Assembly: GCA_963693055.1 (NCBI GenBank)
Contig: OY843751.1
Coordinates: forward strand, 6,471,008 to 6,535,007
Direction: 5' to 3'
From: a bacterium
GTDB lineage: Bacteria > Zhuqueibacterota > Zhuqueibacteria > Residuimicrobiales > Krinioviventaceae
Length of the DNA stretch: 64,000 nt
Shown: one piece after another, positions 7,376-22,671 of the stretch
Position numbering within the stretch: position 1 is the first letter of the stretch
How the letters are laid out: each line of letters starts with the position of its first letter
Notes under the pieces: model-generated
Seen by the model: the letters and a program-made list of their open reading frames with translations, nothing else
Database searches by the model: none
Told to the model about the DNA's origin: nothing
Translations under genes and position numbers: made by a program

Positions 7376-8311
7376 ATGCAGACCATATTGGGTTCAGGGG
7401 GTGCCATAGGTGTAGAATTGGCAAAAGCCCTTATGCAACATACAGAGGATATCCGCCTGGTGAGCAGGAATCCTGAAAAAGTAAATCCAACGGATCAGCT
7501 TTTGGCGGCCGATCTTTTAAATCCTGACGAGGTCCAAAAAGCGGTTAAAGGATCAGAGGTGGTGTATTTGACGGTGGGATTGCCTTATAATTTCAAAATA
7601 TGGCAAGCCAAATGGCCGGTGATTGTGCAGAATGTAATTGACGCATGCAAGCAGCACAAGAGCAAACTGGTGTTTTTTGACAATATTTACATGTATGATC
7701 CCGATTGCCTGTCACACATGACAGAAGAGACCCCCATCCGTCCGGTCAGCAAAAAAGGAGCAATACGAGCAGCATTGGTTGAAATGATTTTCGACAGCGT
7801 GGAAAAGGGCGAGTTGCAGGCACTGGTAGCCCGGTCAGCGGATTTTTATGGTCCGTCGATAAAAAATACCAGCGTCATGACAGAAACGGTGTTCAACTAT
7901 TTGGTGCGTGGTAAAAAAGCCATCTGGTTGGCGGACGCGAACAAAAAACACTCGTACACCTATACCCCGGATGCGGGCAGGGCCACGGCTTTGCTGGGCA
8001 ATACCGATGGAGCTTATAACCAGGTCTGGCATTTACCCACAGCCCCCAATCCTTTCACGGGTAAAGAGTGGGTAGAGGCCATTGCAAAGGAACTGGGGGT
8101 TGCGCCCAAATACATGGTTGCTTCACGATTCATGATGCGCATGATTGGATTGTTTGACATCACCATGAAAGAGGTGGTTGAAATGATGTACCAGAATGAC
8201 CGGGACTATGTGTTTGACAGCAGCAAGTTTGAAAACCGGTTTGGGTTCAAGCCTGCATCGTATGAAGATGGTATTCGCTATATTGTCAACTTGGATTATA
8301 AAAAGGGGTGA
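7376..8311 (+). CDS. NAD-dependent epimerase/dehydratase (extended SDR) family protein
   Basis: AAGGAG RBS. GSGGAIG Rossmann motif, FFDNIYMY and ARSADFYGP. Confidence 0.85.
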   Translation: MQTILGSGGAIGVELAKALMQHTEDIRLVSRNPEKVNPTDQLLAADLLNPDEVQKAVKGSEVVYLTVGLPYNFKIWQAKWPVIVQNVIDACKQHKSKLVFFDNIYMYDPDCLSHMTEETPIRPVSKKGAIRAALVEMIFDSVEKGELQALVARSADFYGPSIKNTSVMTETVFNYLVRGKKAIWLADANKKHSYTYTPDAGRATALLGNTDGAYNQVWHLPTAPNPFTGKEWVEAIAKELGVAPKYMVASRFMMRMIGLFDITMKEVVEMMYQNDRDYVFDSSKFENRFGFKPASYEDGIRYIVNLDYKKG

Positions 8312-8355
8312 TAAGACTTTCGACGGAGCTGCAATGAGCGTAGTGAAAAGAAATA

Positions 8356-8494
8356 AACCGCGGAAAACGCGGAATGACACGGAAAGTAGAGCGAAAAGAA
8401 CCACAGATAGCGCGTTATGAAACGGAAAGTTGTACGAAAAGAACCACAGATGAATCCGCCAGTGGGCGGACAGGCGCTGATAAACGCAGATAAA
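8356..8494. repeat. Degenerate tandem repeat, three ~43-bp units
   Basis: Units begin AACC at 8356, 8399 and 8442. 8379-8408 and 8422-8451 match at 27/30 positions. Confidence 0.7.
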
Positions 8495-8497
8495 AAC

Positions 8498-8532
8498 AAG
8501 ATCGTGACAGAGATTATCTCTGTCACGATCTT
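8498..8532. repeat. Perfect 35-bp palindrome (17-bp arms, 1-nt centre), REP-like
   Basis: AAGATCGTGACAGAGAT-t-ATCTCTGTCACGATCTT. Confidence 0.85.
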
Positions 8533-8551
8533 TATGGCTGCTGTTTTTTTA

Positions 8552-8577
8552 GGTTCCAGTGGCTCTGCCCTGGAACC
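8552..8577. repeat. REP-like hairpin
   Basis: GGTTCCAG-tggctctgcc-CTGGAACC. Confidence 0.5.
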
Positions 8578-8596
8578 AGAGGGGATTTTGTTAATT

Positions 8597-8628
8597 CATT
8601 TAAACGCAGAGACCCAATGAGCGCAGAG
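8597..8628. repeat. Left arm of the imperfect inverted repeat flanking the defence operon
   Basis: CATTTAAACGCAGAGACCCAATGAGCGCAGAG matches the reverse complement of 12629-12658 at 25/30 aligned positions with one 2-nt gap. Confidence 0.65.
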
Positions 8629-8807
8629 AAAAACAGTAACCATAATGATCGAAAATAAAGAATCAATCTATATTTATATTGATGAATTAAAATAATATTT
8701 TGTTTTTATTAATGAATTTGTTTAATTGTAAAAAGGTTAATGGGGTGGATATGGAGCTAGGGATAAAAAATAATTAAGGGGTATAGATTACTAAAGAGGG
8801 GAAAGAT

Positions 8808-10022
8808 TTGCAAGATAATAAGTATTCTAAGAAAAATAAATTTTCAGCGGCAGAACAAGCTTTAGGCTATTTTTATCAGCTGAGATATGCTATGCTTCAG
8901 CTTTTGAGTCTCCCAGAAGATATTATCTGTTATATTGAGAGGGATGATGATATAGATTTCTCAAATGATAGTGAAGGACAAATTCTGGCATCTCTTAAAC
9001 ACAAGGCTGTCGGAGATACTCTTTCTGATTTGTCACCAGATTTTTGGAAATCCGTTCGAATTTGGCTTGATTACTACAATAATGAAAAAAATTTAATTTC
9101 CAAAGCTTCTTTCTTCCTTTTTACAACGGGAAGAGTAGTTGCTGGTTCTTTACTAGAAGCTTTTCTTCCTAATAAGAAATTAGAAGACACTTTCCCAAAG
9201 CAAGTATCCGAAATACTTGATAAATCAGAATCGAAAACAATACAAAAAACAAAAGAACTACTTAAAATTCTACCTAAAGAGAAATGGCTTGATTTCTTTG
9301 GTCGTATTGTAATTTTTGATAATCAAGAACGAATACAAGACATACCTGAAAAAATTATTAATGAAAAATTAAGAACTGTACGACCTCAATTTCGGCAAGC
9401 CGTTTATGAGCGACTTGAAGGTTGGTGGATTAACGAATGTATCGAACTTTTGAGTGGTCAACGCCATGAACCTTTCAAAGGGCATGAAGTATCAGAGATG
9501 TTGAGTTTTTTTGCAGAGCAATTTCATGAAGACAATCTTCCGATTGATTATGAAAATATTGAGCCGGAGAATGGTGTAAATGTTGAAACAGACAATCGTT
9601 TTTTCGTAAATCAGTTGAAAGCAATTGGTCTTCATTCAGATAGACTTAAAAGAGCAATATTGGATTATTATCGTGCATTTGAGCAAAGAGGTTCTTGGTT
9701 ACGTGAAAATGTGACATTATCCGGTGAGCTTGAGAGATATGACGATCGTCTTGTTGATGAATGGTCACGGCTTCGTGAGATTATTTTTGAAGACTTGGCA
9801 AATGATAGTCCAGAAGAACTTTTAAAAAGTACAGGAAGGAAACTGTTAAATGAACTTTCAACAAGTAATCAACCGAATCTTCGTATACGAAAAGGTGTAA
9901 CTGCCACCTTTGTTACAATGGGTAGCTACCATATGCTTGCAAATGATGAGAATCCTCGAGTTCATTGGCATCCCTGTTTTGAGAAAAGAATTCAAGAAAT
10001 TTTCAATGGAGTGGAATTATGA
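8808..10022 (+). CDS. lmuA: Lamassu/ABC-3C effector: Cap4-like PD-(D/E)xK nuclease N-terminus plus ABC-3C C-terminal domain (LmuA/DdmA-like)
   Basis: SAAEQALGYFYQ, IERDDD, SLKHK, FWKSVRIW, RLEGWW, AILDYYRAFEQR and GSYHMLA..VHWHP motifs. First gene of an overlapping three-gene operon. TTG start after a purine-rich RBS. Confidence 0.8.
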   Translation: MQDNKYSKKNKFSAAEQALGYFYQLRYAMLQLLSLPEDIICYIERDDDIDFSNDSEGQILASLKHKAVGDTLSDLSPDFWKSVRIWLDYYNNEKNLISKASFFLFTTGRVVAGSLLEAFLPNKKLEDTFPKQVSEILDKSESKTIQKTKELLKILPKEKWLDFFGRIVIFDNQERIQDIPEKIINEKLRTVRPQFRQAVYERLEGWWINECIELLSGQRHEPFKGHEVSEMLSFFAEQFHEDNLPIDYENIEPENGVNVETDNRFFVNQLKAIGLHSDRLKRAILDYYRAFEQRGSWLRENVTLSGELERYDDRLVDEWSRLREIIFEDLANDSPEELLKSTGRKLLNELSTSNQPNLRIRKGVTATFVTMGSYHMLANDENPRVHWHPCFEKRIQEIFNGVEL

Positions 10023-10507
10023 AATCCTGGAGTAGTAGACCTCGAGAAATAAGAAATTTATTTAATCCAGCATTTTGTGGCTTAGTATTGGTTCGTGGTA
10101 TTGAAGGGTTTATAAAAGAAACTAATAAGCCAATGCCGTTTTCTCTTGCTTTATTGATTCTACCGCTTTGTCTCCATAAGCGGACAAGAGATCACCTTAA
10201 ACAAGGGAATCGTTCTTACTTTTCAAAAATACTTCAAGAACATCCTGAAATTCGAGTTGATTTCGCACAGAGAGCACGAGACCTTTTGCCATATACGATG
10301 GAAGCATTTGCTTACCTCATGGCTTGTGATGTTATTCTTGTTGATGAGTCAGGTGCAATAAAAGTGATTGAACATTCCATTCGTAAGAGTATTATTGGTT
10401 CACAAGATACAAAGGATTGTCAGACAGTAGCTCATTCACTTGGAAAGAAGTTGGCTTTAATTAATGATAGGGTAACCATTTATTCAACATTAGGAATTCG
10501 ACCATGA
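10019..10507 (+). CDS. lmuC: ABC-3C middle component (LmuC/DdmB-like, DUF6521/MC3-like)
   Basis: W..RP.E.RNLFNPAFCG, LILPLCLH..TR and a C-terminal LGIRP. ATGA overlaps with both neighbours. Confidence 0.8.
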   Translation: MKSWSSRPREIRNLFNPAFCGLVLVRGIEGFIKETNKPMPFSLALLILPLCLHKRTRDHLKQGNRSYFSKILQEHPEIRVDFAQRARDLLPYTMEAFAYLMACDVILVDESGAIKVIEHSIRKSIIGSQDTKDCQTVAHSLGKKLALINDRVTIYSTLGIRP

Positions 10508-12453
10508 ATATTTGTGATATAATTCTTTATAGCTATTCAGGTGAAATGAGACGAATCACCTTTAATGTTAAAGGTCTAAATATTATCACTGGACGATCAT
10601 CGACTGGTAAATCGACACTTTCTGACATTGTTGAATATTGTATGGGGCAGAGTGATTTTAATATACCTGAAGGCCCTATTAGAGATAAAGTATCATGGTA
10701 TGGTGTTATTTATCAGTTTAAAGGAGAACAAGTTTTAATTGCTAAACCATCTCCGGCAATAAATGCGGCGAGCTGTTCAAGGGCAATGATTAAAAGAGGG
10801 GCAGAAATTGAACCACCACCTTATAATGAACTTAAACAAAATGCTGATGATTCAACCGTGGTATCACTTCTTTCAGAATTGCTTGGAATCCCTGCGAATC
10901 GAACAGATGTGCCAAATGATCAGAGCCGTCAATCATTTTCTACAACAATTAAGCATACCCACTTCTATCTTTTTCAAAAACAAGGTTTGATTACAAATAA
11001 AGAGCAATTGTTTTACAAACAAAATGAACAGTTTTTACCACAAAAAATTAAGGATACTTTACCAATCCTTCTTGGCGTAATACCAAGTAATCGCTTTGAA
11101 ATTGACAATAAACTACGGGCAATTCGTCGGGATTTAAAGATCGTCCAAAAACAATTAGATGAAGCTGAACAATTTAATGAAAAAATTAATGTAAGAGCTT
11201 TAGGACTTTTATCTGAAGCTCAACAGGTTGGTATTTATAGTCAAGGGCCACTTCCCAATAATACAAATGAAGCATTAGTGGCAATGAAAGAGATTTTGAA
11301 ATGGAAACCTATTTCTGTTCCTGATGAAGATACGCGTCGGATAATTGAATTAGAAGAAGAAATTGCTGCCATACGAAAAGAAAGAATGTCAGCAAATGAG
11401 ACTTTACGTGCAACTCAAGATTTTGTTAATAAAGAAAAAAGTTTTACAACAGAAGCGAAAGAACAAAAAAGTCGTCTAGAATCCATTAATGCTTTACCAA
11501 TTAATCCTGAATCAGGTAAATGGCAGTGGCCATTTGTACCTGAAAATTTTGGAATGGATACTCCAATAGGTAAATCTTTAATAAAGGAACTTAATTCGTT
11601 AGATGATGAATTAAAAACAGTGCTTGGAGAACAACCACATTTGGAGAAATATACTCAAAAAATTGAAAATCAAATTTCTGATTTAAATCAAATAATGCAG
11701 ATGAAAGAAGAGGAGCTTGCTGCAGCAATTATGGCAAATGAAGCAATAGCAGTAATGGGTAATAGAAATGCAGCTGCAGCTAGAATTGTTGGACGAATAA
11801 GTTTGTTTCTTGAAACTTATAAACCAGAAGAAGATGTTGCTTTGTTGAAAAAGCGTGTTGAGGTGTTATCTGAACAAGTTGTCCTTTTGGAAAAAGAATC
11901 AGGAAAAAATGATATAGAAGAGCGATTAGAATCAATAATCAATATTATTTCAACTAGAATAAGTCGATATGTTACTGAACTTGATGCAGAGTTTTCAGAA
12001 TACCCTTTTAGATTTGATTATAAAAAGTTGACTGTTGTTGCAGATAGACCCGAAAGACCTATACCAATGAATAAGACCGGGGGTGGGGCCAATCATTTAG
12101 CTTATCATTTGGGAATTATGCTTTCACTTCATCATTTTACATCTAATAATTTGAAACCTGTACCTTCGTTTTTATTTCTTGATCAACCTACACAAGTATA
12201 CTTTCCTTCTGAACAAATGTACAAAGCGGTTTCTGGCTCTATTGAAGAAACGGAAAGAGATTCAGATCTAGAGAAAGTACGTAATTTATTTTTCATGTTA
12301 CACCGTTTTGCAAATAATGAGGCGAAAGATTTTCAAATTATAGTAACTGAGCATGCAAATTTACGAGATGATTGGTTTCAAAATTCGATTATCGAAGTGC
12401 CGTGGGCAAAACCACCAGCTTTAGTGCCTGAAGAATGGGGTTTTTTTGATTAG
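10504..12453 (+). CDS. lmuB: SMC/Rad50-like ABC ATPase, DUF3732 family (LmuB/DdmC-like)
   Basis: Walker A GRSSTGKS, Q-loop FQKQ, long coiled coil, signature-like GGGAN, Walker B FLFLDQPTQVYFP and switch VTEHA. Confidence 0.85.
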   Translation: MNICDIILYSYSGEMRRITFNVKGLNIITGRSSTGKSTLSDIVEYCMGQSDFNIPEGPIRDKVSWYGVIYQFKGEQVLIAKPSPAINAASCSRAMIKRGAEIEPPPYNELKQNADDSTVVSLLSELLGIPANRTDVPNDQSRQSFSTTIKHTHFYLFQKQGLITNKEQLFYKQNEQFLPQKIKDTLPILLGVIPSNRFEIDNKLRAIRRDLKIVQKQLDEAEQFNEKINVRALGLLSEAQQVGIYSQGPLPNNTNEALVAMKEILKWKPISVPDEDTRRIIELEEEIAAIRKERMSANETLRATQDFVNKEKSFTTEAKEQKSRLESINALPINPESGKWQWPFVPENFGMDTPIGKSLIKELNSLDDELKTVLGEQPHLEKYTQKIENQISDLNQIMQMKEEELAAAIMANEAIAVMGNRNAAAARIVGRISLFLETYKPEEDVALLKKRVEVLSEQVVLLEKESGKNDIEERLESIINIISTRISRYVTELDAEFSEYPFRFDYKKLTVVADRPERPIPMNKTGGGANHLAYHLGIMLSLHHFTSNNLKPVPSFLFLDQPTQVYFPSEQMYKAVSGSIEETERDSDLEKVRNLFFMLHRFANNEAKDFQIIVTEHANLRDDWFQNSIIEVPWAKPPALVPEEWGFFD

Positions 12454-12581
12454 TTATTTCACAACTTAAAAAATGAAATTTGTACCTAAGAATATAATAT
12501 GCTTGGCATAAAGCTACTTTCAAGTATCTTGATTTGGATTTTTATTTGATCAAGAGAGATCATTTTTTTCCGTTCAATCAA

Positions 12582-12611
12582 CCTTCCGAGGGGCTATCAG
12601 CCCTCGGGAGG
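12582..12611. repeat. REP-like palindrome, possibly a terminator
   Basis: CCTTCCGAGGGGCT-atc-AGCCCTCGGGAGG, located between convergent genes. Confidence 0.6.
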
Positions 12612-12628
12612 AGGTTTTTAATTCTTCC

Positions 12629-12658
12629 CTCTGTGTTCTTTGGCTCTGCGTTCAAGTG
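12629..12658. repeat. Right arm of the imperfect inverted repeat flanking the defence operon
   Basis: Its reverse complement CACTTGAACGCAGAGCCAAAGAACACAGAG aligns to 8597-8628. Confidence 0.65.
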
Positions 12659-12756
12659 TTTCAAGATGTTAGAATAATTAAGCTTGTTGGTCCCCTTCAA
12701 GTAATATTTGAATGTATCCCGGTTCCATATTTCATAAAGAACCGGGATTTTTAATA

Positions 12757-14553
12757 TTACAATTTCAGCAGTGAATCCAGCAATGATTGCGGTACCTCGA
12801 ACACGGTGCCGTGGCGCATGTCGTCGGGATGGGTGATCCATTTTGAGATATCGTCCCAGTTTTTCAGATCTTTGGAGCGTACCGCGCCGTATTTGTGCTT
12901 GCGGTATTTGTCAAAATAGACATACCACCAGTCCCCGATCTTGATAGCGGTGGGACCTTCGGCCCAGTAATCGCCAGTGATAGGTTTTGAAGCGTCAGTG
13001 TAAGGCCCGGCTGCTTTATTGCTGGTGGCGATACGTATGTTTTTTTCCGGAGTCAAGGGACGGTCGGTTTCGTTCTTGAGATACATGACATATTGATCGC
13101 CATTCTTTGTCAGGGTACCATCAATCACATTAAATCCATGATCATAAAACAATTTGGTATCGCTGAATGTATCAAAATCCTTTGTGGTGACGTAATACAT
13201 GCGGTGGTTTTTCATGTTTTTGCTGGTGTCCCGGGGGTCTTTGTGGTCGGTTTCCGGAAAGCGTCCGGGAATGGTTGTCGACCAAAAGATATAGTATTGC
13301 TCTGTGGCATCGTCATAATACACTTCGGGCGCCCAGGTATTTTGCGCGATGGCTTCGTGCTCCATCACCGGAATATATTTCTGTTCCGACCAGTGCACCA
13401 GATCTTTTGAACTGGCATAACCTATGCCTTTTTCTTTCCAGCTAACGGTCCATACCATGTGATAAAGACCATCCGGTCCCTGAATAACACAGGGATCTCG
13501 CATGAGCTTGTCGCCGCCAACCATGGGAGTTAGAAAAGATTTACCATTGTTCAGGGCCTTCCAATCCAGTCCGTTATAACTGTACGCCAAATGCAGTCCG
13601 TCTTCGCCGTTACCGTTGAAATAGGTAAAGAGATAGGCGGTGGATTCTTTTTGTTCCAGTTTGTGCATGGTATTTGCGAATTGTACACCCAGATCAATAA
13701 AACCGGCAGTGTCATAATGATATCTATCGGAATAGCCGTAATTGTCTGTACTGGTTACCAGTGCGGCGTAAGGATCTTTATCACAATAATCAGCTTCTGC
13801 TTTACGGACGATATCGCCATAATCCCAAACCTTGCCGTCATCATCCTGTCCCGAATCCGAGATACGTCCCACAACAACCGGCAGATCATCCACACGCAGT
13901 GCGGCACGGACCTGGTCCATCAGCTTTTTCAGATTGGCTTCATATGCTTCGGCGCTGTTTTGGGCGTGACCATCACTCTCGCCCTGCATCCACAAAATAC
14001 CGCACGGGATGAGCGTGTCTTTTTCGCCATCACCATCAATATCATCTACGCTTAGGGCATTGCGCAAGGTTGCCAGAAAATGGTCGTACTGGTTAATACC
14101 ATTACCACTGTAAAAATCGGGGTCCCAGCAGCCTGCTTTGCGTGCCTGATCGGGATGAATAGATGTGCCGCCTTTGGAGTATTTAACCAGAGCGATGGGC
14201 ATAGTGGGGTCCAACTCGTTCATGTGTTTGCCAAAAGTCAGTTCAAGCCCAAAACGATTGGAATAGGTGTTTGTGAGACCATCGGATTTGAATCCGCTGC
14301 CATGACCCGGCATCAGGGGAGACCATTTGCCGATTCCATTGACAGGCATATTGTCCGATTCACGGCTGCTTTGATAGATCAGTACATTGGGCACGGGTTT
14401 GTTAAGATCGGCAGGCAGTTCACTGACCGTACCGTAACCATCCATATTGGACTGGCCGCCAAGATAATAGAGCTTGTATGTTTTTGCGGAAAGCGGGGTA
14501 ACAGTTAAAACGAGTAATATAAAGACAAGTAAAAGTAAATATAATCTTTTCAC
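12757..14553 (-). CDS. Secreted sialate O-acetylesterase-like (SASA/CE6-type SGNH) domain fused to a GH43-like beta-propeller
   Basis: Signal peptide. Esterase motifs GQSNM, WMQGESD and DRYH. GH43-like motifs LMRDP, WAPE, VIDG and AEGP. GTG start with a GGAGG RBS. Confidence 0.8.
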   Translation of the reverse strand: MKRLYLLLLVFILLVLTVTPLSAKTYKLYYLGGQSNMDGYGTVSELPADLNKPVPNVLIYQSSRESDNMPVNGIGKWSPLMPGHGSGFKSDGLTNTYSNRFGLELTFGKHMNELDPTMPIALVKYSKGGTSIHPDQARKAGCWDPDFYSGNGINQYDHFLATLRNALSVDDIDGDGEKDTLIPCGILWMQGESDGHAQNSAEAYEANLKKLMDQVRAALRVDDLPVVVGRISDSGQDDDGKVWDYGDIVRKAEADYCDKDPYAALVTSTDNYGYSDRYHYDTAGFIDLGVQFANTMHKLEQKESTAYLFTYFNGNGEDGLHLAYSYNGLDWKALNNGKSFLTPMVGGDKLMRDPCVIQGPDGLYHMVWTVSWKEKGIGYASSKDLVHWSEQKYIPVMEHEAIAQNTWAPEVYYDDATEQYYIFWSTTIPGRFPETDHKDPRDTSKNMKNHRMYYVTTKDFDTFSDTKLFYDHGFNVIDGTLTKNGDQYVMYLKNETDRPLTPEKNIRIATSNKAAGPYTDASKPITGDYWAEGPTAIKIGDWWYVYFDKYRKHKYGAVRSKDLKNWDDISKWITHPDDMRHGTVFEVPQSLLDSLLKL

Positions 14554-14666
14554 AATTCCTCCGGGGTTTATTACAATTCTTTACAGGCAGTTTTGAATGT
14601 TCAAGATTTGATCTTGAATGTAATAAAAAAATGGGTTATAATACAGAAAAAACAGAGGTGGAGGAT

Positions 14667-15977
14667 ATGAATAAAGTTGTCCTTTTTATATTGAGCTTGA
14701 GCGCAGCGCTTGCCGCGGATACCGGCATATGGTACTCGCAAATTTTCCCTTTACAGGAGTTACATGTGCATGGTTCTACGCTTGTCGAATGTGCCAATGG
14801 AGATATTATTGTGGCGTGGTTTCAGGGCTCTGGCGAGCGTCAGGCAGAAGATGTAAGAATTATGGGTGCCAGGTTGAAAAATGGCAGCCAGGAGTGGAGC
14901 ACTCCCTTTGAACTGGCAGATACACCGGGGTTACCCGATATTAATCCGGTATTGTTTATTGATCCGCAGGGGAAATTATGGTTATTCTATTACGCGGTGA
15001 TTGCTCACCAGTGGGAAACATCGTTGTTAAAGTACAAAATTGCCAACGAGTATGAGGCCGATGGCCCGCCTAAATGGGATTGGCAGGAAGTTTTACATAT
15101 AATTCCGGTACCGGGATCAGGACGAGGCATTCAACCCGGTGACCCGTTTCTTGCTTCTGTTAAAGAACAGCTTGAAGCACAGGAAGATTTTCTCGAAAAG
15201 CAGGGTGCATTCCAAACTGAGGAGTTGAGCAAAAAATGGCAGGACCGGAAAGAAGAGTTGATCGGTCATGCAGCAGGAGAAAATATGGTGCGCTCCGGCA
15301 GGTTGTATCACGAGGATGGCAGTTATGATGAACAATCCATGGGGTATCCCTGGTTTCGCAGAATGGGATGGCAAACCCGCAACAAACCTTTTGTTGTTGG
15401 CGAGCGCATGATTTTACCCCTCTATTCCGACGGATTCAGTTTTTCGCTTATGGCGATAACTGACGATTGGGGAAAGAACTGGCATACCAGTGCTCCCATA
15501 GTGGGTTTGGGTAACATACAACCCGCCATTGCGGAAACCCGTGATGGAGATCTGGTAACCTATATGCGTGATAATGGTCCGCCACCCAAACGACTGCATG
15601 TCAGCCGTTCAACAGACAAGGGCGAAACCTGGGGACTGGTTCAGGATACCGAAATCCCTAATCCCGGTGCGGGAGCGGATGTTGTAACACTCGATAATGG
15701 AGACTGGGTTTTGCTGGATAATGATGTTGAAGAAGGTCGGCATAGTTTGGCGGTGTATTTGTCTACAGATGAAGGGAAAACCTGGCCCTACAAACGTCAC
15801 ATTGAACTGGATGAACGGGGTAAGGATGGAAACCGTTACCACTATCCGGCAGTGATACAGGGCAAAGATGGAATGCTGCATGTCTGTTACAGCTATTTTA
15901 AAAGAGGAGAAAACAGAAAAAGAAACTCGATTAGATATGCAAGGTTTTCAAGAGACTGGATTATGGCTGATGAATAA
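14667..15977 (+). CDS. Secreted BNR/Asp-box sialidase-like protein (BNR_2)
   Basis: GGAGG RBS before the ATG at 14667 (ORF track starts at 14631). Asp-boxes TDDWGKNW, STDKGETW and STDEGKTW, plus YHYP. Confidence 0.8.
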   Translation: MNKVVLFILSLSAALAADTGIWYSQIFPLQELHVHGSTLVECANGDIIVAWFQGSGERQAEDVRIMGARLKNGSQEWSTPFELADTPGLPDINPVLFIDPQGKLWLFYYAVIAHQWETSLLKYKIANEYEADGPPKWDWQEVLHIIPVPGSGRGIQPGDPFLASVKEQLEAQEDFLEKQGAFQTEELSKKWQDRKEELIGHAAGENMVRSGRLYHEDGSYDEQSMGYPWFRRMGWQTRNKPFVVGERMILPLYSDGFSFSLMAITDDWGKNWHTSAPIVGLGNIQPAIAETRDGDLVTYMRDNGPPPKRLHVSRSTDKGETWGLVQDTEIPNPGAGADVVTLDNGDWVLLDNDVEEGRHSLAVYLSTDEGKTWPYKRHIELDERGKDGNRYHYPAVIQGKDGMLHVCYSYFKRGENRKRNSIRYARFSRDWIMADE

Positions 15978-15998
15978 TATAATGATAAGGACTAGCAG

Positions 15999-17315
15999 AT
16001 GAATTTAAAAAAGCTTTTTTATTCAAGTATTATATTTATGTTTGTTATTATGGGGTGTCAAAAGAACCAGCCCTTGCCCGCATCAGAGTATAATTCTCTG
16101 ACAAATGATGGTGTGTGGTGCTGGTTTTCTGATCCGCGTGCCATCTATCATAAAGGTGCCAAAGAGTGCACCTATGCCGGCTGGGTGTCGGAACAGGGTG
16201 ATATTGTGATTGGTTCGTATAACCATACCAGCAAAAAAATAGATACATTTGTACTACATGAAAAACTGGAAAAAGATGATCATAACGTACCGTCTATACT
16301 GGTTCGGGATGATGGCAGAATTCTGGCATTTTATTCTCGTCATAGTGATGACGATATGTATATGCGGATTTCTACAAATCCTGAAGATATTTCCCAGTGG
16401 GAGCCGGTATCGCGCATGTATATCAATGATGTGGATGCCTTTCCCAAGGGGACCAAAAATTCATATACTTATAGCAATCCCTATCAGCTTTCTCAGGAAG
16501 ATGGGCGTATTTATTTGTTCTACCGGGGTATGGATTTTAAGCCCAATGTTTCAATCTCTGATGATGGCGGCTTGACCTGGTCCATGGCAAAATTGTTTAT
16601 TTTACCGGAGCGGATCTACAAGAACCGCAGACCGTATGTGAAATACTATTCGGATTACAAGTCAAAAGTCCATTTTTTGTTCACAGATGGACATCCGCGT
16701 AACGAACCCACCAATAGTGTGTATTATGCTTGTTATCATGATGGTGCGTTTTACAAAGCCAACGGTGAAAAGATGATCGATTTTGAAAATATACCCTTTT
16801 CACCACAGCAGGCTGATCGCGTATATGATGCCCGACAGGACAGTGTGCGCGCCTGGGTTTGGGATGTTACGGTAGACAGTGATGATCGTCCTGTTATCGT
16901 TTATACACGTTTTCCCAAAGAGACAGACCATCGCTATCATTACGCTCGCTGGGACGGACAGAAATGGCAGGACCACGAGATCACCCCGGCGGGACCGTGG
17001 TTTCCTCAAACTCCCGAAGGAAAAGAAGAACGGGAAACCTATTACTCGGGTGGCGTGGTGCTTGATCATGAAAATCCCAATGTGGTTTATTTGAGCCGCA
17101 AAATTAACGGTGTTTTTGAGATTGAACGCTGGGTGACGGATGATATGGGCAATAGCTGGACACATGCTGCAATTACTCGGAATTCTCAATACGACAATGT
17201 AAGACCCTTTGTGCCCTGGTTTTCGCCAGAGGATGTAGAGCCGCATGTGTTCTGGATGACAAATTTAAAATATATACACTATTCGGATTATAGCAGTGAA
17301 ATAAAAATGTTTTGA
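15999..17315 (+). CDS. BNR-4 repeat lipoprotein
   Basis: Lipobox IMGC. WCWFSDPRA, DDHNVP, YTY.NP, Asp-box SDDGGLTW and RPYVKY motifs. Confidence 0.75.
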   Translation: MNLKKLFYSSIIFMFVIMGCQKNQPLPASEYNSLTNDGVWCWFSDPRAIYHKGAKECTYAGWVSEQGDIVIGSYNHTSKKIDTFVLHEKLEKDDHNVPSILVRDDGRILAFYSRHSDDDMYMRISTNPEDISQWEPVSRMYINDVDAFPKGTKNSYTYSNPYQLSQEDGRIYLFYRGMDFKPNVSISDDGGLTWSMAKLFILPERIYKNRRPYVKYYSDYKSKVHFLFTDGHPRNEPTNSVYYACYHDGAFYKANGEKMIDFENIPFSPQQADRVYDARQDSVRAWVWDVTVDSDDRPVIVYTRFPKETDHRYHYARWDGQKWQDHEITPAGPWFPQTPEGKEERETYYSGGVVLDHENPNVVYLSRKINGVFEIERWVTDDMGNSWTHAAITRNSQYDNVRPFVPWFSPEDVEPHVFWMTNLKYIHYSDYSSEIKMF

Positions 17316-17364
17316 GCTTGTTTTAATACTATTGTTTGATTATGAATTGATGGGAGTACCAACC

Positions 17365-18654
17365 ATGTCAGGACCTTTGCTGGATTCTATTGCTGACCTG
17401 AGATCGCTCGTTGACCGGCTTAATTTTCTACACAAGGTTTCGCAAAAAATTTCAGAAACCAAGCCTTTATCAAAATTATTGAATGAGATCCTTGAAGACA
17501 GTAAAATTGTAATGGATGTTGAAGCCAGTTCTCTGTTATTGTATGATAAAAAAGAGAAAAAGTTGTATTTTCAGGTTGCTACCGGCAGTAAAGGTAAATC
17601 GGTAAAGCGGCACAGTGTCAAGCTGGGTGGAGGTCTGGCCGGGTGGGTGGCAAAACATAAACAACCGCTATTAATTGATGATTGCTATAATGATCCCCGT
17701 TTTGATGACTGGTATGATAAAAAGTTGAATTACAAAACCCGGAATATGATCTGTGTGCCCATGATGCGCAAGAAAAAGCTGATAGGAGTCATACAGGTTA
17801 TTAATAAAAATAATGGCAAAGGTTTTGCCCAGCAGGATTTGAATATTTTTGAGACCCTGGCTTCGCAATGCGCTATTGCTATTGAAAACGCCAGGCTGGT
17901 GGTAACACAGGTTGAAAAAGAGGCCCTTGAGCGGGAGCTGGATACCGCGCGCACCATTCAGCAAAACCTGTTGCCAGACAAACTCCCGGATTATGATGAT
18001 CTGGATACGGCGGCCATGCTGGTCCCGGCCAAAGAAGTAGGGGGTGATTATTATAATGTACTCCGGATTAATGATAAGACCAGCCTGTTTCTGGTTGCGG
18101 ATGTTGCAGGTAAAGGGATTCCCGCGGCCTTGATTGTTTCTACCATTTTTTCTTATTTGCAGACTTTTATAAAGCTGGAAGATTCTTTTGATCTTATGCG
18201 GTTTGTGAAGAGTCTGAATCGGGTATTGATGGACTCTACCACGTTCGATAAATTTGTAACTGTTTGGATTGGTGTATATCATCATCAATCCAAAGAGCTG
18301 GAAAGCGTTAACGCCGGTCATAACCCTACCTATCTTTTTAGAAAGGGAATAAGCAATCCACAGATTTTGAGTGATGGTGGGATATTTTTAGGTAGTCTTG
18401 AGGTACCGTTTGAGATCGAGTCCATTCGGATTGGATCCGGGGATGTGTTATTATTCTATTCGGATGGTGTTACCGAGGCATGGAACAAAAAGCAGGAAGA
18501 TTATGGTGAAGAGCGCCTGATTCAACTGGTTTCTAAAAACCGGAAAAAGAAAGCCGCTGATTTATTGGACTTGATCAATAAAGATTTAAAGCAGCACGCT
18601 GGTAAAGCAGTGCAGAGTGATGATATTACCTGCGGTATTGTTAAATTCAAATAA
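17365..18654 (+). CDS. GAF-domain SpoIIE/PP2C serine phosphatase (RsbU-like)
   Basis: N-terminal GAF domain. VGGDYY, VADVAGKG, NAGH, YSDGVTEA and DDIT motifs. GGAG RBS before 17365 (ORF track starts at 17332). Confidence 0.9.
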   Translation: MSGPLLDSIADLRSLVDRLNFLHKVSQKISETKPLSKLLNEILEDSKIVMDVEASSLLLYDKKEKKLYFQVATGSKGKSVKRHSVKLGGGLAGWVAKHKQPLLIDDCYNDPRFDDWYDKKLNYKTRNMICVPMMRKKKLIGVIQVINKNNGKGFAQQDLNIFETLASQCAIAIENARLVVTQVEKEALERELDTARTIQQNLLPDKLPDYDDLDTAAMLVPAKEVGGDYYNVLRINDKTSLFLVADVAGKGIPAALIVSTIFSYLQTFIKLEDSFDLMRFVKSLNRVLMDSTTFDKFVTVWIGVYHHQSKELESVNAGHNPTYLFRKGISNPQILSDGGIFLGSLEVPFEIESIRIGSGDVLLFYSDGVTEAWNKKQEDYGEERLIQLVSKNRKKKAADLLDLINKDLKQHAGKAVQSDDITCGIVKFK

Positions 18655-18673
18655 ATAATCCCCGGAGATTTTT

Positions 18674-19801
18674 TTGAACGTTCACGAGATATAGTCAAAG
18701 TCCATTTTACGGAAACAAAAGAAAATTGAATTCTGGTTTTTGAGTTACTATGGTATGAATCTGTACAGAGGATGTACGCACAACTGTTCTTATTGCGATG
18801 GCAGGGCAGAAGGATATTATGTGGAAGGTGAGTTTGGCTGTGATATCAGCGTAAAAATCAATGCGCTGGAATTGTTAACACGCGAGTTGGATCCCTCCCG
18901 AAAGCGCAAGCCTATGAAGCGCAGTTTTGTGCTGCTCGGCGGGGGAGTCGGTGACAGTTATCAGCTTATTGAAAAAAAGTATCAATTGGCACGGGGGGCG
19001 TTGGAACTGATAGAACACTTTGATCATCCCGTGCATGTGCTGACCAAATCCACATTGGTCGAGCGGGACATGGATATTTTACTCCGTATCCATGAGAAAC
19101 AGCGAACGCTTTTGAGCATGAGTTTTTCATCTGTGGATGAAGAGATTAGTCGAATATTTGAACCGGGTGTACCGTCGCCAACCAAACGATTAGCGACTCT
19201 GAAAAAGTTTAAAGAACAGGGTGTGATATGCGGCATGTATCTGCTGCCGGTCATACCCTTTATTACAGATTCTGAAGAGCAGATTGACAGGTCCGTCAAG
19301 GCTGCGGCAGATGCAGGATTGGATTACATTCATTTTGGCGGTATGACGCTCAAAGATGGACGCCAGCGACAGTATTTTGAATCTGTGATTGAAAGGCATT
19401 ATCCAGAGGAACTTGGGAAATATCGTAAAATCTACACGGGGGACCGTTGGGGCCAGGCAATTGGTAAATATTATGACTGGATCCATAAAAGCCTGCTCAA
19501 AGCAGCCAAAGAACACAATATACCACTACGAGTACCTAAACCGGTGTTCGATGATATTTTAGATGAAACAGATACTGTCATTGTAATGCTGGAGCAAATG
19601 GATTACATGCTGCGCTTGAAAGGTGAAAAGGGTCCATATGGATACGCGGCATGGTCTCTTGCAAAAGCAGGAGAACCGGTATCGGAAATAATAAACAATT
19701 TGGAAAGCATCAAGGGGATCAATGCCAAAGCGGCATCGGTAATACGAGAGATTTTGGAAACCGGAAACGCAAAGGCGTATTTACAATCTATGGAATTGTA
19801 A
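18674..19801 (+). pseudogene. Spore-photoproduct-lyase-like radical SAM protein with C-terminal HhH domain, interrupted by an in-frame TAG at codon 7 (downstream ORF 18740-19801 intact)
   Basis: GGAG RBS then TTG at 18674, reading MNVHEI*SKSILRKQKKIEFWFLSYYGMNLYRGCTHNCSYC (TAG at 18692-18694). CxxxCxxC, LTKS and LLPVIPFITD motifs. C-terminal SIKGINAKAASVIREILETG. Confidence 0.65.
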
Positions 19802-19820
19802 ATACGCCGGAAAAAGTCAA

Positions 19821-21059
19821 TTATATCAATAATTCTTTGATTGCAAAATATGTGGTCATGAGTGAAAACAGAATAACCGCAATAATGCCGATTTTCATTT
19901 TCAGGTTTGCAGTGTGTTTTTGCATCAAGGATGATCGGGTGATGAGCATATATATAGGAATAGCTACAGCCGGTAAAATACACGCTTGAAACGCTTGTGA
20001 AAATACCATCAATGCGGGGGGGCGCTGTTCCAGGAAAATTCGTCCCAATCCAAACAAAATACCGACAAGCATGAGTGTTCGATACATGGGCGAATGGATG
20101 TCGCGCGGTTTGCCGGTATAATCGCTAATGAGCCAGGGAGCAATCAACACAATGGGGAATACGGTTGAAAGGCCCGCGCCGGTGATTCCCAATATCAGAA
20201 CAAAAGCCGCAAATTTGCCACCGAGGGGTTGAAACATGTGGATCATTTCTACAGTATCATCCAGTTTTAAACCCATAATGTGTAGCGTACCCGCGGATAC
20301 CGCCATAATAATACCACTGAGAAACAACATCATTGCTGCAGATACAAAGGCGTCTTTTTTCTCGTTTTTCAAGTGACTCAGGTTCCAGCCCTTTTCCGCA
20401 ACAACCGTACTACGCATAATAAAAACTGCAGCCGAACAGGTGGTGCCAGCCATGGCGGCTACCAATCCCATTGCACCGGGTGTGCTGGGAATACCGGGTA
20501 TCATACCTTTTGCAATTGCCGCAAAACTGGGTTTAACCATAAAAAATACAACCAGAAAACAGAGTCCCATTAATATTACAAAAGCAGTCAATACTTTTTC
20601 AAAGACCTGGTAACGACCAAACCATAACAACGCATAGAGACCAATTATGAGTGTTACAATGAACCAGGCAATGTGAGGTGTGCCCCAGCCCAATAATCTG
20701 ACACCTTCCTGAAGCAGATCTGCAACAATGCCCAGTACACCCATTAATGCCAGCAGTTCACCAATAATTAATGCTGCCATAATGTACAGGGCCAGAATGT
20801 TGCCATATTTGAATTGAGTTTTTATATTGTACAAAGCAGTATGTCCGGTAACCAGAGTGACCTGTCCATAGGCTACCATGAGGATATAGGTAAAAACGCA
20901 CGAGAGGATCAAAGCCCAGAACAGGGTCATACCGTGTTCCGCACCTGATTTTGCCATGGTGGTTACACTGCCGGTCCCAATGTTATAACCGATCAAAAAC
21001 AGCCCCGGTCCCACAGCACTTAGAGCAATAATAATTTTTTTTAGAATGGGATTTTTCAT
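19821..21059 (-). CDS. Nramp-like family membrane transporter
   Basis: AVGPGLF..GYNIGTGSVTT..KSGA, MAGTT, and about 11 TM segments. Confidence 0.8.
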   Translation of the reverse strand: MKNPILKKIIIALSAVGPGLFLIGYNIGTGSVTTMAKSGAEHGMTLFWALILSCVFTYILMVAYGQVTLVTGHTALYNIKTQFKYGNILALYIMAALIIGELLALMGVLGIVADLLQEGVRLLGWGTPHIAWFIVTLIIGLYALLWFGRYQVFEKVLTAFVILMGLCFLVVFFMVKPSFAAIAKGMIPGIPSTPGAMGLVAAMAGTTCSAAVFIMRSTVVAEKGWNLSHLKNEKKDAFVSAAMMLFLSGIIMAVSAGTLHIMGLKLDDTVEMIHMFQPLGGKFAAFVLILGITGAGLSTVFPIVLIAPWLISDYTGKPRDIHSPMYRTLMLVGILFGLGRIFLEQRPPALMVFSQAFQACILPAVAIPIYMLITRSSLMQKHTANLKMKIGIIAVILFSLMTTYFAIKELLI

Positions 21060-21088
21060 AACACACCTTATGATAAAGGTTAGAATTG

Positions 21089-21125
21089 AACACGAATAAA
21101 ACGAAAGACACGAATTTTCACGAAT
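21089..21125. repeat. Left arm of a periodic inverted repeat (CACGAAT cores)
   Basis: aacacgaat|aaaacgaaa|gacacgaat|tttcacgaat gives a 28/37 ungapped match to the reverse complement of 21565-21601. Confidence 0.75.
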
Positions 21126-21511
21126 TAAATTTTTAGAGATTTTTTGTCATTTGTGAAAATTTTTCTAACATATTCAGGCTTTTTACCAAAATTTAATAAT
21201 AAACCAAGTTCAATATGACTTGCTCTTAGATAATTAATTAACTGGTATTCATGCGCTGAACATAATTTTTCACAAACTTAAAGTTCTAAAATAATTTTAT
21301 TTTCAACCAGTATATCAGCATAGTATTCACCAATTGATATACCCTCGTAAATCACATTGATCTTTTTTTGCTGTTCGATTCCGAGTCCCTTTTTTTGCAA
21401 TTCTATGATCATTGCATTTTCGTATACTTTTTCAAGGAACCCATATCCAAGTTTGTTATTCACCGTATAAAAAGAATGGATAATTTGATTCGATAACTCC
21501 TGATAAAGCAT
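21125..21511 (-). pseudogene. GxxExxY family (PD-(D/E)xK nuclease-like) protein with an internal TAA stop
   Basis: GYGFLEKVYENA, YYADILVE, then ILEL*VCEKLCSAHEYQLINYLRASHIELGLLLNFGKKPEYVRKIF continuing in frame to the TAA at 21125-21127. The internal stop is at 21278-21280. Confidence 0.88.
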
Positions 21512-21564
21512 GTTTCCCCCAGATTGGAATTAATTAAATCAAAAAAGTATGATAGTTTAGAAAG

Positions 21565-21629
21565 ATTCGTGTAAATTTGTGTTTATTGTGTCATTCGTGA
21601 CATATCTTATATAGAACACGAATGACACA
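21565..21629. repeat. Right arm of the periodic inverted repeat plus a local 13-bp hairpin
   Basis: The reverse complement of 21565-21601 is gtcacgaat|gacacaata|aacacaaat|ttacacgaat. TGTGTCATTCGTG (21587-21599) pairs perfectly with CACGAATGACACA (21617-21629). Confidence 0.75.
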
Positions 21630-21641
21630 TATTGAGAAAGA

Positions 21642-22478
21642 TTACTTTTCAAAGATTTTTGCCATATATTCCTGGCAGATACCTTCTTTGGCCATCATGC
21701 GTTTGATGCCGCTAACAACGCTAAAATAGCCGCCAATCTTGTTATATTCAGATTGGCGTTCTACAAGTTTTTTCTGTAATTGTTTTGCCTTGTCCCAATC
21801 TCCGGCAGTTCCTGCGTCAAAAATTTCATTACACAATTCCGGATACAAATGCCCAATGCTGGCAACGCTGCCATTACAACCGCGTTTTAAACCTTCATAG
21901 ATAAGTGTTTCTTCACCCATAAAGACTTTGTAATCATCGGTTTTACATTCTTTGACCAGACTTTCAAAATACTCAAGATCTCCACTGCTGTCTTTGATGC
22001 CTACAACATTGGGATGCCCTACAAATTTTTTGGCAACTGAAACAGGAATCTTTTTACCATTAAATTGAGGAATACTGTACAGCATGAGTGGTAATTTACT
22101 ATATTCTACAATGGTTGTAAAAAAGTGTTCGATCATTTCATCTGTCATGGGGAAATATGGAGGGAGCTGAAGTGAAACAATATCTGCTCCCGAATCATAT
22201 GCTTTGTCTGCAAAATCTAACACATCTTCATATGCACATGCCCCAATGCCGGCAATGACCGGAACTTTTTTGTCTACTGCTTTGATAACTGTATCAATGG
22301 CTTCAAGCCTTACCTTTACGGGCAATGCAAGAAATTCACCGGTTGATCCGGCTACATAAAAACTGTTCACATTATCGATCAATTTATCGATGATTTGGTT
22401 CATGGCCTCTGCATCAAACTCCCGTTCCTTTGTCAGCGGGGTCACCAAGGGTACCATGAGGCCCTGTAATTTGGACAT
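21642..22478 (-). CDS. Dihydrodipicolinate synthase/N-acetylneuraminate lyase family aldolase
   Basis: LVTPL, GSTGE, PPY, LYSIP and Schiff-base GIKDSSGD motifs. Confidence 0.88.
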   Translation of the reverse strand: MSKLQGLMVPLVTPLTKEREFDAEAMNQIIDKLIDNVNSFYVAGSTGEFLALPVKVRLEAIDTVIKAVDKKVPVIAGIGACAYEDVLDFADKAYDSGADIVSLQLPPYFPMTDEMIEHFFTTIVEYSKLPLMLYSIPQFNGKKIPVSVAKKFVGHPNVVGIKDSSGDLEYFESLVKECKTDDYKVFMGEETLIYEGLKRGCNGSVASIGHLYPELCNEIFDAGTAGDWDKAKQLQKKLVERQSEYNKIGGYFSVVSGIKRMMAKEGICQEYMAKIFEK

Positions 22479-22671
22479 AAAACTTTCCCTTTCCGATTAT
22501 TTTTTATTTATAACATATTATTTTTCGGCATCTTAATCAAGCAGTTTTTTTCGCAAAAACGGCAATTAAATATAATTTGTGAAAATTGTATCACTTTTGA
22601 AATATTTAATACATTTAATTGTTATATTTTTTACAATTTAGGATATGAAATATAATAGTTTAGGAGGAAAA

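What the first reader, a model, noticed from the sequence alone, without database searches (positions are those of the whole stretch)
8356..21629. Hypothesis: a repeat-delimited cassette system linking GxxExxY nucleases and defence cargo
Seen: two independent accessory inserts in this window (the Lamassu-like operon and the GxxExxY gene) share one architecture. Each has inverted 30-37-bp arms built from repeated 7-mer cores (C(G/A)CAGAG or CACGAAT; related CACAGAT/CGCGGAA cores occur at 8356-8494), with the purine-rich strand pointing inward on both sides and no recombinase. Inference: these arms may be one family of mobility or recombination signals, possibly served by GxxExxY PD-(D/E)xK proteins, able to carry cargo such as defence operons. 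I know of no description of such a mechanism, but two examples are weak evidence and the cores are not identical.
Basis: inference. Interest (0 to 1): 0.7.

Follow-up and report, generated by a model that had tools for sequence, protein, structure and literature searches.

The report
GxxExxY-linked repeats mark gene-turnover hotspots
The short repeat "arms" are real, occur over 100 times in this genome and frame every GxxExxY nuclease gene, but the anti-phage operon most likely landed in an existing repeat cluster rather than travelling as an arm-bounded cassette.

Summary
The arms are real and belong to one family. A profile trained outside the window finds 116 intergenic copies against 4.2 by chance. 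Arms face inward around 5 of 5 GxxExxY genes here and 10 of 19 in relatives. This scan noted that gene-plus-arms design before, on other DNA; my searches found no paper on it.

The cargo-cassette claim mostly fails. A sister species lacks the Lamassu operon but keeps the right arm. The missing segment starts 14 nt outside the left arm and ends about 50 nt inside the right arm. None of 40 Lamassu homologue loci is bracketed. Inward pairs 1-20 kb apart are depleted (3 vs 7 expected). Defence enrichment is not significant (5/32 vs 8/110, p=0.17).

What survives: arm-bearing intergenic sites are gene-turnover hotspots (15/113 vs 4.4 expected, p=0.0005), but an unrelated hairpin marks them equally well. 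About six inward pairs enclose AT-rich, species-specific genes. The window's GxxExxY gene is a pseudogene.

Verdict: a REP/BIME- or NIME-like repeat mosaic with an undescribed GxxExxY-linked unit. A dedicated cassette system is unlikely (about 0.13).

The parts
8355..8384 (+). Arm: three phased CRCRRA units (CGCGGAA/CGCGGAA/CACGGAA)
   Evidence: 30.3 bits; not at this place in sister genome G001
8398..8427 (+). Degenerate arm
   Evidence: 16.6 bits; 43-nt direct repeat with the previous unit
8442..8491 (+). Arm interrupted by a small TCCGCC..GGCGGA palindrome (stem 8455-8470)
   Evidence: the module 8442-8532 is inverted in G001
8498..8532 (.). Hairpin H2 (perfect 16-bp stem), member of a second dispersed family
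   Evidence: z -9.65; 89 intergenic half-motif matches in the genome
8552..8577 (.). Hairpin H4, shared with the empty allele of G001
8587..12581 (.). Segment absent from G001 (about 20 nt there); 34% GC against 47% for both flanking genes
8601..8628 (+). Left arm (AACGCAGAG subtype), 14 nt inside the left breakpoint
   Evidence: 18.8 bits
8808..10022 (+). lmuA: Lamassu effector with ABC-3C CTD7; N-terminal domain probably a Cap4-like nuclease (only a weak DUF4297 hit)
   Evidence: PADLOC LmuA E 3.5e-63; Pfam CTD7 E 3e-38
10019..10507 (+). lmuC (ABC-3C MC3)
10504..12453 (+). lmuB, SMC-like ATPase, 649 aa
   Evidence: PADLOC E 4e-126; closest relatives 67-74% identical in other phyla
12582..12611 (.). 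Hairpin H1 at the right breakpoint, shared with G001
12629..12654 (-). Right arm; present in the Lamassu-free allele of G001, so not part of the insert
   Evidence: 18.7 bits
21087..21125 (+). 3' arm of the GxxExxY element (CACGAAT units), abutting the gene's stop codon
   Evidence: 26.0 bits
21125..21511 (-). GxxExxY (PF13366, PD-(D/E)xK) pseudogene, 128 codons; TAA at 21278-21280 falls on the invariant Lys78
   Evidence: intact in G001
21565..21599 (-). 5' arm of the GxxExxY element
   Evidence: 18.4 bits
21587..21629 (.). Hairpin formed by the 5' arm and an outward arm (21613-21642); its 17-nt loop is inverted between G000 and G001

Best explanation
The arms are a dispersed REP-like repeat family whose gene-bearing form encloses a GxxExxY nuclease gene, and the Lamassu operon is a likely horizontally acquired insert that most likely landed in an existing mosaic of these and other palindromic repeats rather than moving as an arm-bounded cassette. 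Shown: each arm is three 7-mers (CRCRRAK) at 8-10-nt phase; arms face inward around GxxExxY genes and form short gene-less doublets; they cluster with other hairpin families; such sites rearrange locally and gain or lose genes about three times more often than length-matched sites. Inferred: the GxxExxY nuclease binds or cuts the arms, or the hairpins they form, and so spreads and maintains them. Inferred: breakage and host repair, or homology-assisted recombination, at these mosaics lets foreign genes in. Inferred: an inward bracket appears when an insert with an arm at one end lands next to a resident arm.
For: 116 intergenic arms vs 4.2 in shuffles; 59 of 116 have a neighbour within 300 nt; inward doublets under 300 nt 15 vs 9.6 expected, P=0.014. 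GxxExxY genes framed inward 5 of 5 here by inspection of flanks. Of 19 full-length genes in 5 relatives, 17 have an arm on at least one side and 10 are framed inward, against 1 of 11 control loci with any arm. The empty allele in G001 keeps H4, H1 and the right arm. Empty alleles carry arms in 15 of 113 vs 4.4 expected, p=0.0005, and hairpin H2 in 18 of 113 vs 4.5, 12 of them without an arm. Local inversions at 8442-8532 and in the loop at 21587-21629. Lamassu is 34% GC and has no relative above 26-30% identity in 166 other genomes of the phylum. The predicted fold is a Cas4 / lambda exonuclease / Hjc-type nuclease, and no recombinase was among the listed matches.
Against: Only one sister genome could be aligned, over 2.43 of about 6.5 Mb, so the direction of each event is inferred. 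Blocks bracketed on both sides are inward 4, same-direction 4, outward 0. Inward pairs enclose lower-GC DNA than outward pairs (median 0.33 vs 0.42, p=0.028; 3 of the 11 inward pairs are GxxExxY elements). Both hint at more order than random landing. No activity of the GxxExxY protein on the arms has been shown.
Confidence: 0.65

Rival explanations
1. Dedicated cassette system: subtype-matched inward arms are transfer or recombination signals, served by GxxExxY proteins in trans, that carry replaceable cargo including defence genes.
For: About six inward pairs enclose AT-rich species-specific genes other than GxxExxY: Lamassu; an IrrE/HTH + IS256 + DUF4411 + HEPN block whose G001 allele holds two other genes; a 226-aa and a 349-aa gene, each beside a GxxExxY element with the same build in G001; a 253+129-aa pair; and a TIR/NDT-like gene. 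No outward bracket among 211 species-specific blocks. The Lamassu arms share a subtype and are 79% alike; the 95th percentile of random pairs is 74%.
Against: The right Lamassu arm is resident and the breakpoint is about 50 nt inside it. Only 4 of 211 blocks are inward-bracketed; both breakpoints lie within 15 nt of an arm in 1 of 21 sites. Inward pairs at 1-20 kb: 3 vs 7.0 expected. 0 of 40 Lamassu homologue loci bracketed. In 146 metagenome anchors, inward brackets around other genes occur at 4 loci, at background GC, with mostly housekeeping genes. Arms point toward cargo 25 vs 14, p=0.11. Defence 5/32 vs 8/110, p=0.17.
Confidence: 0.13
2. Neutral landing pads: the arms are mobile or amplifying repeats that survive only where insertions are tolerated; foreign genes survive in the same places, so the association has no mechanistic link.
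For: The unrelated hairpin H2 predicts variable sites as well as arms do. At one site a RAYT gene with GTAG REPs in G000 and an arm doublet in G001 occupy the same slot. Several cargoes are ordinary IS transposases.
Against: The enrichment persists after length matching and is measured on the allele without cargo. Inversions and duplications occur within the repeat clusters themselves.
Confidence: 0.17
3. The arms are RNA-level signals: pairing of the two arms in a transcript loops out the enclosed gene, as in intervening sequences, so the inward geometry is selected to limit harm to host operons and is unrelated to DNA mobility.
For: The GxxExxY element sits between two co-oriented genes (DHDPS and Nramp families) and its arms are subtype-matched. 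Arms lie mostly between co-directional genes (52 of 76 regions).
Against: No strand preference relative to transcription (43 sense vs 36 antisense). A single arm does not fold. The Lamassu arms are 4 kb apart, and the right arm lies between convergent genes.
Confidence: 0.05

Closest known systems
REP/REPIN-RAYT systems, REPtrons and TIRtrons (PMC3116915, PMC3733652; passages read)
   Same: A small nuclease-type gene flanked by inverted short repeats; the same repeats dispersed in intergenic DNA as singlets, inverted doublets and clusters.
   Different: The gene is a PD-(D/E)xK GxxExxY protein, not an HUH tyrosine transposase; an arm is three phased direct 7-mers, not a palindrome, with no GTAG or CGTC tag; doublets are less dominant here.
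BIMEs, and REPs as IS targets (PMC3733652 passages; PMC1525189 abstract)
   Same: Mosaics of several small repeats at gene ends that are preferred sites of insertion; IS transposases are among the cargo here.
   Different: Other repeat units; the Lamassu insert has no transposase and no target duplication was seen.
Neisseria NIME/dRS3 arrays and minimal mobile elements (PMC1797815; passages read)
   Same: Syntenic but dynamic intergenic repeat arrays, proposed there to promote exchange and insertion of adjacent genes; alternative cargo at one syntenic slot, including restriction-modification genes.
   Different: dRS3 is a 20-bp element with 6-bp terminal inverted repeats; here the unit is a phased heptamer arm tied to a small nuclease. 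The recombinase role is a hypothesis in both cases.
Lamassu (ABC-3C CTD7/MC3) defence system (PMC12663957; passages read)
   Same: lmuA-lmuC-lmuB are all present.
   Different: Nothing unusual in the genes; only the repeat context is special.
Integron cassettes and MITE-bounded or composite transposons (recalled; no paper read)
   Same: Short repeats next to variable, AT-rich, often defence-related genes.
   Different: No integrase or transposase at the site, no breakpoints at both arms, no target duplication, no recurrence of cargo with its arms.

Membership tests
REPIN-RAYT system | Cognate gene is an HUH (Y1) tyrosine transposase | tested here: not met
   The flanked gene is PF13366 with a PD-(D/E)xK fold; of the genome's two Y1_Tnp matches, the one inspected has GTAG REPs, not arms
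REPIN-RAYT system | Each repeat is itself a short palindrome with a GTAG or CGTC tag | tested here: not met
   Three single arms folded, none better than shuffles
REPIN-RAYT system | Repeats dispersed in intergenic DNA, enriched as inverted doublets, and flanking the cognate gene | tested here: met
   116 vs 4.2; inward doublets 15 vs 9.6; 5 of 5 and 10 of 19 genes framed
REPIN-RAYT system | The enzyme processes the repeat | not testable with these tools
   needs biochemistry
BIME/NIME-like intergenic mosaic | Several repeat types clustered at syntenic sites with variable content | tested here: met
BIME/NIME-like intergenic mosaic | Associated with gene exchange nearby | tested here: met
   15 of 113 vs 4.4 expected; 32 of 163 vs 22 of 686 junctions; one genome pair only
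Repeat-bounded mobile cassette (MITE-bounded or integron-like) | Both breakpoints of the filled and empty alleles coincide with the two repeats | tested here: not met
   Lamassu: 14 nt outside the left arm, about 50 nt inside the right arm; 1 of 21 sites
Repeat-bounded mobile cassette (MITE-bounded or integron-like) | Cargo recurs with its repeats in other genomes or sites | tested here: not met
   0 of 40 Lamassu loci plus 2 distant ones in the phylum. One 39%-identical homologue of the 226-aa cargo has arm doublets about 500 nt upstream but no bracket. Flanks of TIR/NDT-like homologues stayed unchecked.
Repeat-bounded mobile cassette (MITE-bounded or integron-like) | Excised circles or precise empty sites in the population | tested here: inconclusive
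   Three contig sets of one sample show no joint that skips the operon; contigs drop rare variants
Repeat-bounded mobile cassette (MITE-bounded or integron-like) | Cognate recombinase or transposase | tested here: not met
   None among the ORFs scanned at the locus; the GxxExxY model matches nucleases
Lamassu | lmuA, lmuC and lmuB in one operon | tested here: met
Lamassu | Anti-phage activity | not testable with these tools
   needs plaque assays

The most novel reading that the evidence does not exclude
GxxExxY nucleases cut at helically phased heptamer arms and turn arm clusters into recombinase-free capture slots. Subtype-matched inward pairs then act as exchangeable gene slots, filled in different lineages by the nuclease gene itself, by single conflict genes or by whole defence operons such as Lamassu.
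Probability: 0.13. Interest if true: 0.8.

Novelty: new variant of a known kind. Interest (0 to 1): 0.4.

Why it matters
GxxExxY (PF13366) is a widespread family listed with unknown function (PMC3424549, passage). A candidate DNA substrate, the phased heptamer arm, makes it directly testable. New here is a filled-versus-empty comparison, which shows that arm-bearing mosaics are sites of gene turnover, including defence systems, in this lineage. It also shows that the arms do not behave as cassette ends. If the capture-slot reading were true, it would be a route of defence-gene acquisition without an integrase or transposase.

Tried and rejected
Generic repeat finding did not report the Lamassu arm pair among its longest pairs. 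Rfam: no match in 8000-22500. PDB sequence search with an intact GxxExxY protein: none. Sequencing runs: no RNA holder listed. The three DNA contig sets are one sample and may be the window's source; they match the window, including the TAA, and show no joint skipping Lamassu, which is not independent evidence. Leading/lagging strand bias of arms: 67 vs 49, p=0.11. Orientation relative to transcription: no bias. ESM Atlas for the 226-aa cargo: only unnamed clusters. Flanks of the two close TIR/NDT-like homologues (G004 63%, G088 53%) could not be examined and remain open. Defence counting left out RtcR sigma-54 regulators, viperin-like radical SAM hits, a subtilase and all hits weaker than E 1e-10. 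No complex prediction was run.
Full report
1. The observation. The three genes between the first pair are lmuA (CTD7), lmuC (MC3) and lmuB. They are 34% GC against 47% for both neighbours. The second pair frames a PF13366 gene at 21125-21511 with an in-frame TAA at codon 78. Lys78 is invariant in 17 of 17 aligned relatives, so this copy is a pseudogene; the sister-genome orthologue is intact. No recombinase family was hit among the eight ORFs scanned in and beside the interval; three ORFs at 14631-18654 were not scanned.

2. One family, genome-wide. I trained a three-unit profile on intergenic copies outside the window. It finds 116 intergenic sites at 18 bits or more, against 4.2 in order-2 shuffles. 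All 5 GxxExxY genes of the genome have inward arms by inspection of their flanks. Of 30 matches in five relatives I kept the 19 full-length ones. An arm lies within 300 nt on at least one side in 17; the nearest arms face inward in 10, the same way in 3 and outward in 2. One of 11 control loci had any arm. Most arms have no such gene: 59 of 116 have a neighbour within 300 nt, and inward doublets at that range are enriched (15 vs 9.6, P=0.014). At 1-20 kb inward pairs are depleted (3 vs 7.0, P=0.038) and same-direction pairs enriched (21 vs 13.9, P=0.007).

3. Filled and empty allele. G001 (same genus, about 90% nucleotide identity) lacks Lamassu. Its orthologous gap is a 390-nt repeat mosaic. 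Hairpin H4 (8552-8577), hairpin H1 (12582-12611) and the right arm (12629-12654) are in both genomes. Homology stops at 8586 and resumes at about 12576-12582, with about 20 nt between in G001. So the left arm lies 14 nt inside the variable segment, and the right arm is resident, about 50 nt beyond it. No target duplication is visible. The module 8442-8532 is inverted between the genomes, as is the 17-nt loop of the arm hairpin at 21587-21629. LmuB's closest relatives (67-74%) are in other phyla; within the phylum only 2 of 166 other genomes match, at 26-30%. That favours a recent gain (inference). None of 40 homologous Lamassu loci is bracketed, and 1 has an arm-like hit within 600 nt. Several of these loci are cut short on one side, and many hosts may lack the family altogether.

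4. Are arms tied to variable genes? Over 2.43 Mb of G001 I compared 1525 junctions between orthologous genes. Arms occur at 32 of 163 variable junctions and at 22 of 686 invariant ones of 40 nt or more. Counting only the allele without cargo and matching for length, 15 of 113 carry an arm against 4.4 expected (p=0.0005). The unrelated hairpin H2 does the same, 18 of 113 vs 4.5, 12 of them without an arm. The hotspot effect is real for this genome pair but not specific to arms. Of 211 species-specific gene blocks, 8 have arms on both sides: inward 4, same-direction 4, outward 0 at 16 bits (3, 5, 0 at 18 bits). Breakpoints lie within 15 nt of an arm in 8 of 42 cases, and at both ends in 1 of 21 sites. 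The nearest arm points toward cargo 25 times and away 14 times (p=0.11; 25 vs 17 with a wider window).

5. Defence cargo. Arm-bearing junctions hold Lamassu, a type II restriction-modification system, DarTG, a PifA-like NTPase and an IrrE/HTH-DUF4411-HEPN block: 5 of 32. Arm-free junctions hold HerA-DUF4297, a type II RM system, methyltransferases, PDC-S28, an AbiLi/AriA-like gene and HEC-09: 8 of 110 junctions scanned at least in part (82 fully, of 131; 96 of 152 G000 and 134 of 150 G001 genes). Fisher p=0.17, or 0.30 without Lamassu. No enrichment is shown.

6. Inward pairs enclose lower-GC DNA than outward or same-direction pairs (medians 0.33, 0.42, 0.39; p about 0.03). That comparison includes three GxxExxY elements among the inward pairs, counts two related genomes, and left out part of G000. 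About six inward pairs, most of them subtype-matched, hold species-specific non-GxxExxY genes. In G001 a 226-aa gene and a 349-aa gene each sit in an arm pair built like the neighbouring GxxExxY element. A 253+129-aa pair is bracketed too; its RHS-tip look is a recalled motif, and Pfam gave no hit. The slot at G000 273-279 kb is bracketed in both genomes with different cargo. At the TIR/NDT-like gene, G001 keeps the left arm but has another gene and no right arm. That is the same one-resident-arm pattern as Lamassu. These cases are few and were picked after the fact.

7. Wider sample. A metagenome scan for the Lamassu subtype gave 124 loci, 122 of them analysed, with 146 anchors. On the side the arm points to, the next arm closes a short hairpin in 45 cases, encloses GxxExxY in 1 and other genes in 5 (4 loci); 49 were too short to tell and 19 had no partner. 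The four brackets are at background GC and hold mostly housekeeping genes such as PanB/PanC, AcpS and a sigma-54 regulator. GxxExxY lay within 400 nt on the pointed side 3 times and on the back side never.

8. Mechanism. The intact protein models at pLDDT 91 and matches Cas4 SSO0001 (E 7e-4), lambda exonuclease and Hjc. It is a small nuclease with no sign of a strand-joining domain. The most economical reading is a REP/RAYT-like pairing with a different enzyme. The nuclease likely recognises phased arms and keeps them spreading (inferred), gene-less copies pile up with other palindromes in mosaics (shown), and those mosaics rearrange and take in genes (association shown, cause inferred). Lamassu entered one such mosaic.

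9. Known systems. REPINs and RAYTs, REPtrons and TIRtrons (PMC3116915, PMC3733652, passages); REPs as IS targets (PMC1525189, abstract); Neisseria NIME arrays and minimal mobile elements (PMC1797815, passages); Lamassu (PMC12663957, passages). PMC3390384 (passages) added nothing on repeat-bounded cargo. Full-text searches for GxxExxY (3 records, 2 listed, single table or aside mentions) and PDDEXK_3 (function unknown), found no description of these arms. The library lacks most subscription papers. This scan had noted the gene-plus-arms design in other genomes and a repeat mosaic in this one; a search for the defence-cargo version returned nothing. The KSB1 label for the organism comes from an earlier AI note and was not tested.

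10. Verdict. Observation partly confirmed. One repeat family linked to GxxExxY: supported. Cassette system carrying defence cargo: not supported by breakpoints, recurrence, orientation or enrichment, though a handful of inward brackets keep it open at about 0.13. Interest 0.4.

Noticed in passing
G000:C1:372521-373754 (L210) vs G001:C3:2387716-2387814: The same slot holds a Y1/RAYT gene region between inverted GTAG REPs in G000 and a gene-less inward arm doublet in G001.
   Followed up: partly
window 8498-8532 and genome-wide: Hairpin family H2 (89 intergenic half-motif matches) marks variable sites as strongly as the arms do; no cognate gene was identified.
   Followed up: partly
G000:C1:5715021-5717570 (L214) vs G001:C3:1833519-1837476 (L158): Swap slot next to an arm cluster: DarTG in G000; in G001 four genes with only weak putAbiC, PDDEXK_9 and Eco29kI-like hits.
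   Followed up: partly
G000:C1:4596739-4597056: Four-helix-bundle gene flanked by a different set of heptamer tandem repeats in opposed orientation.
   Followed up: no
L252 (G001:C3:2627948-2630602): Co-oriented GxxExxY, 222-aa LamG and 349-aa genes separated by duplicated element ends; absent at the G000 site.
   Followed up: partly
L029 (G010) and L041 (G014): Long tandem arrays of arm doublets (about 107- and 155-nt units) directly upstream of GxxExxY genes.
   Followed up: no
L256 (G161:C300): A homologue of the 226-aa cargo lies downstream of two duplicated arm doublets and what looks like the end of a CRISPR array.
   Followed up: partly
G001:C3:1849585-1851104: A 1.2-kb array of repeated mosaic units between matched inward arms, without real genes.
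   Followed up: no
G000 whole genome: 84 of 116 arms lie in the half of the chromosome nearest the GC-skew minimum, the likely origin.
   Followed up: no
window 47097-55544: A 2815-aa ORF on the minus strand, not examined.
   Followed up: no
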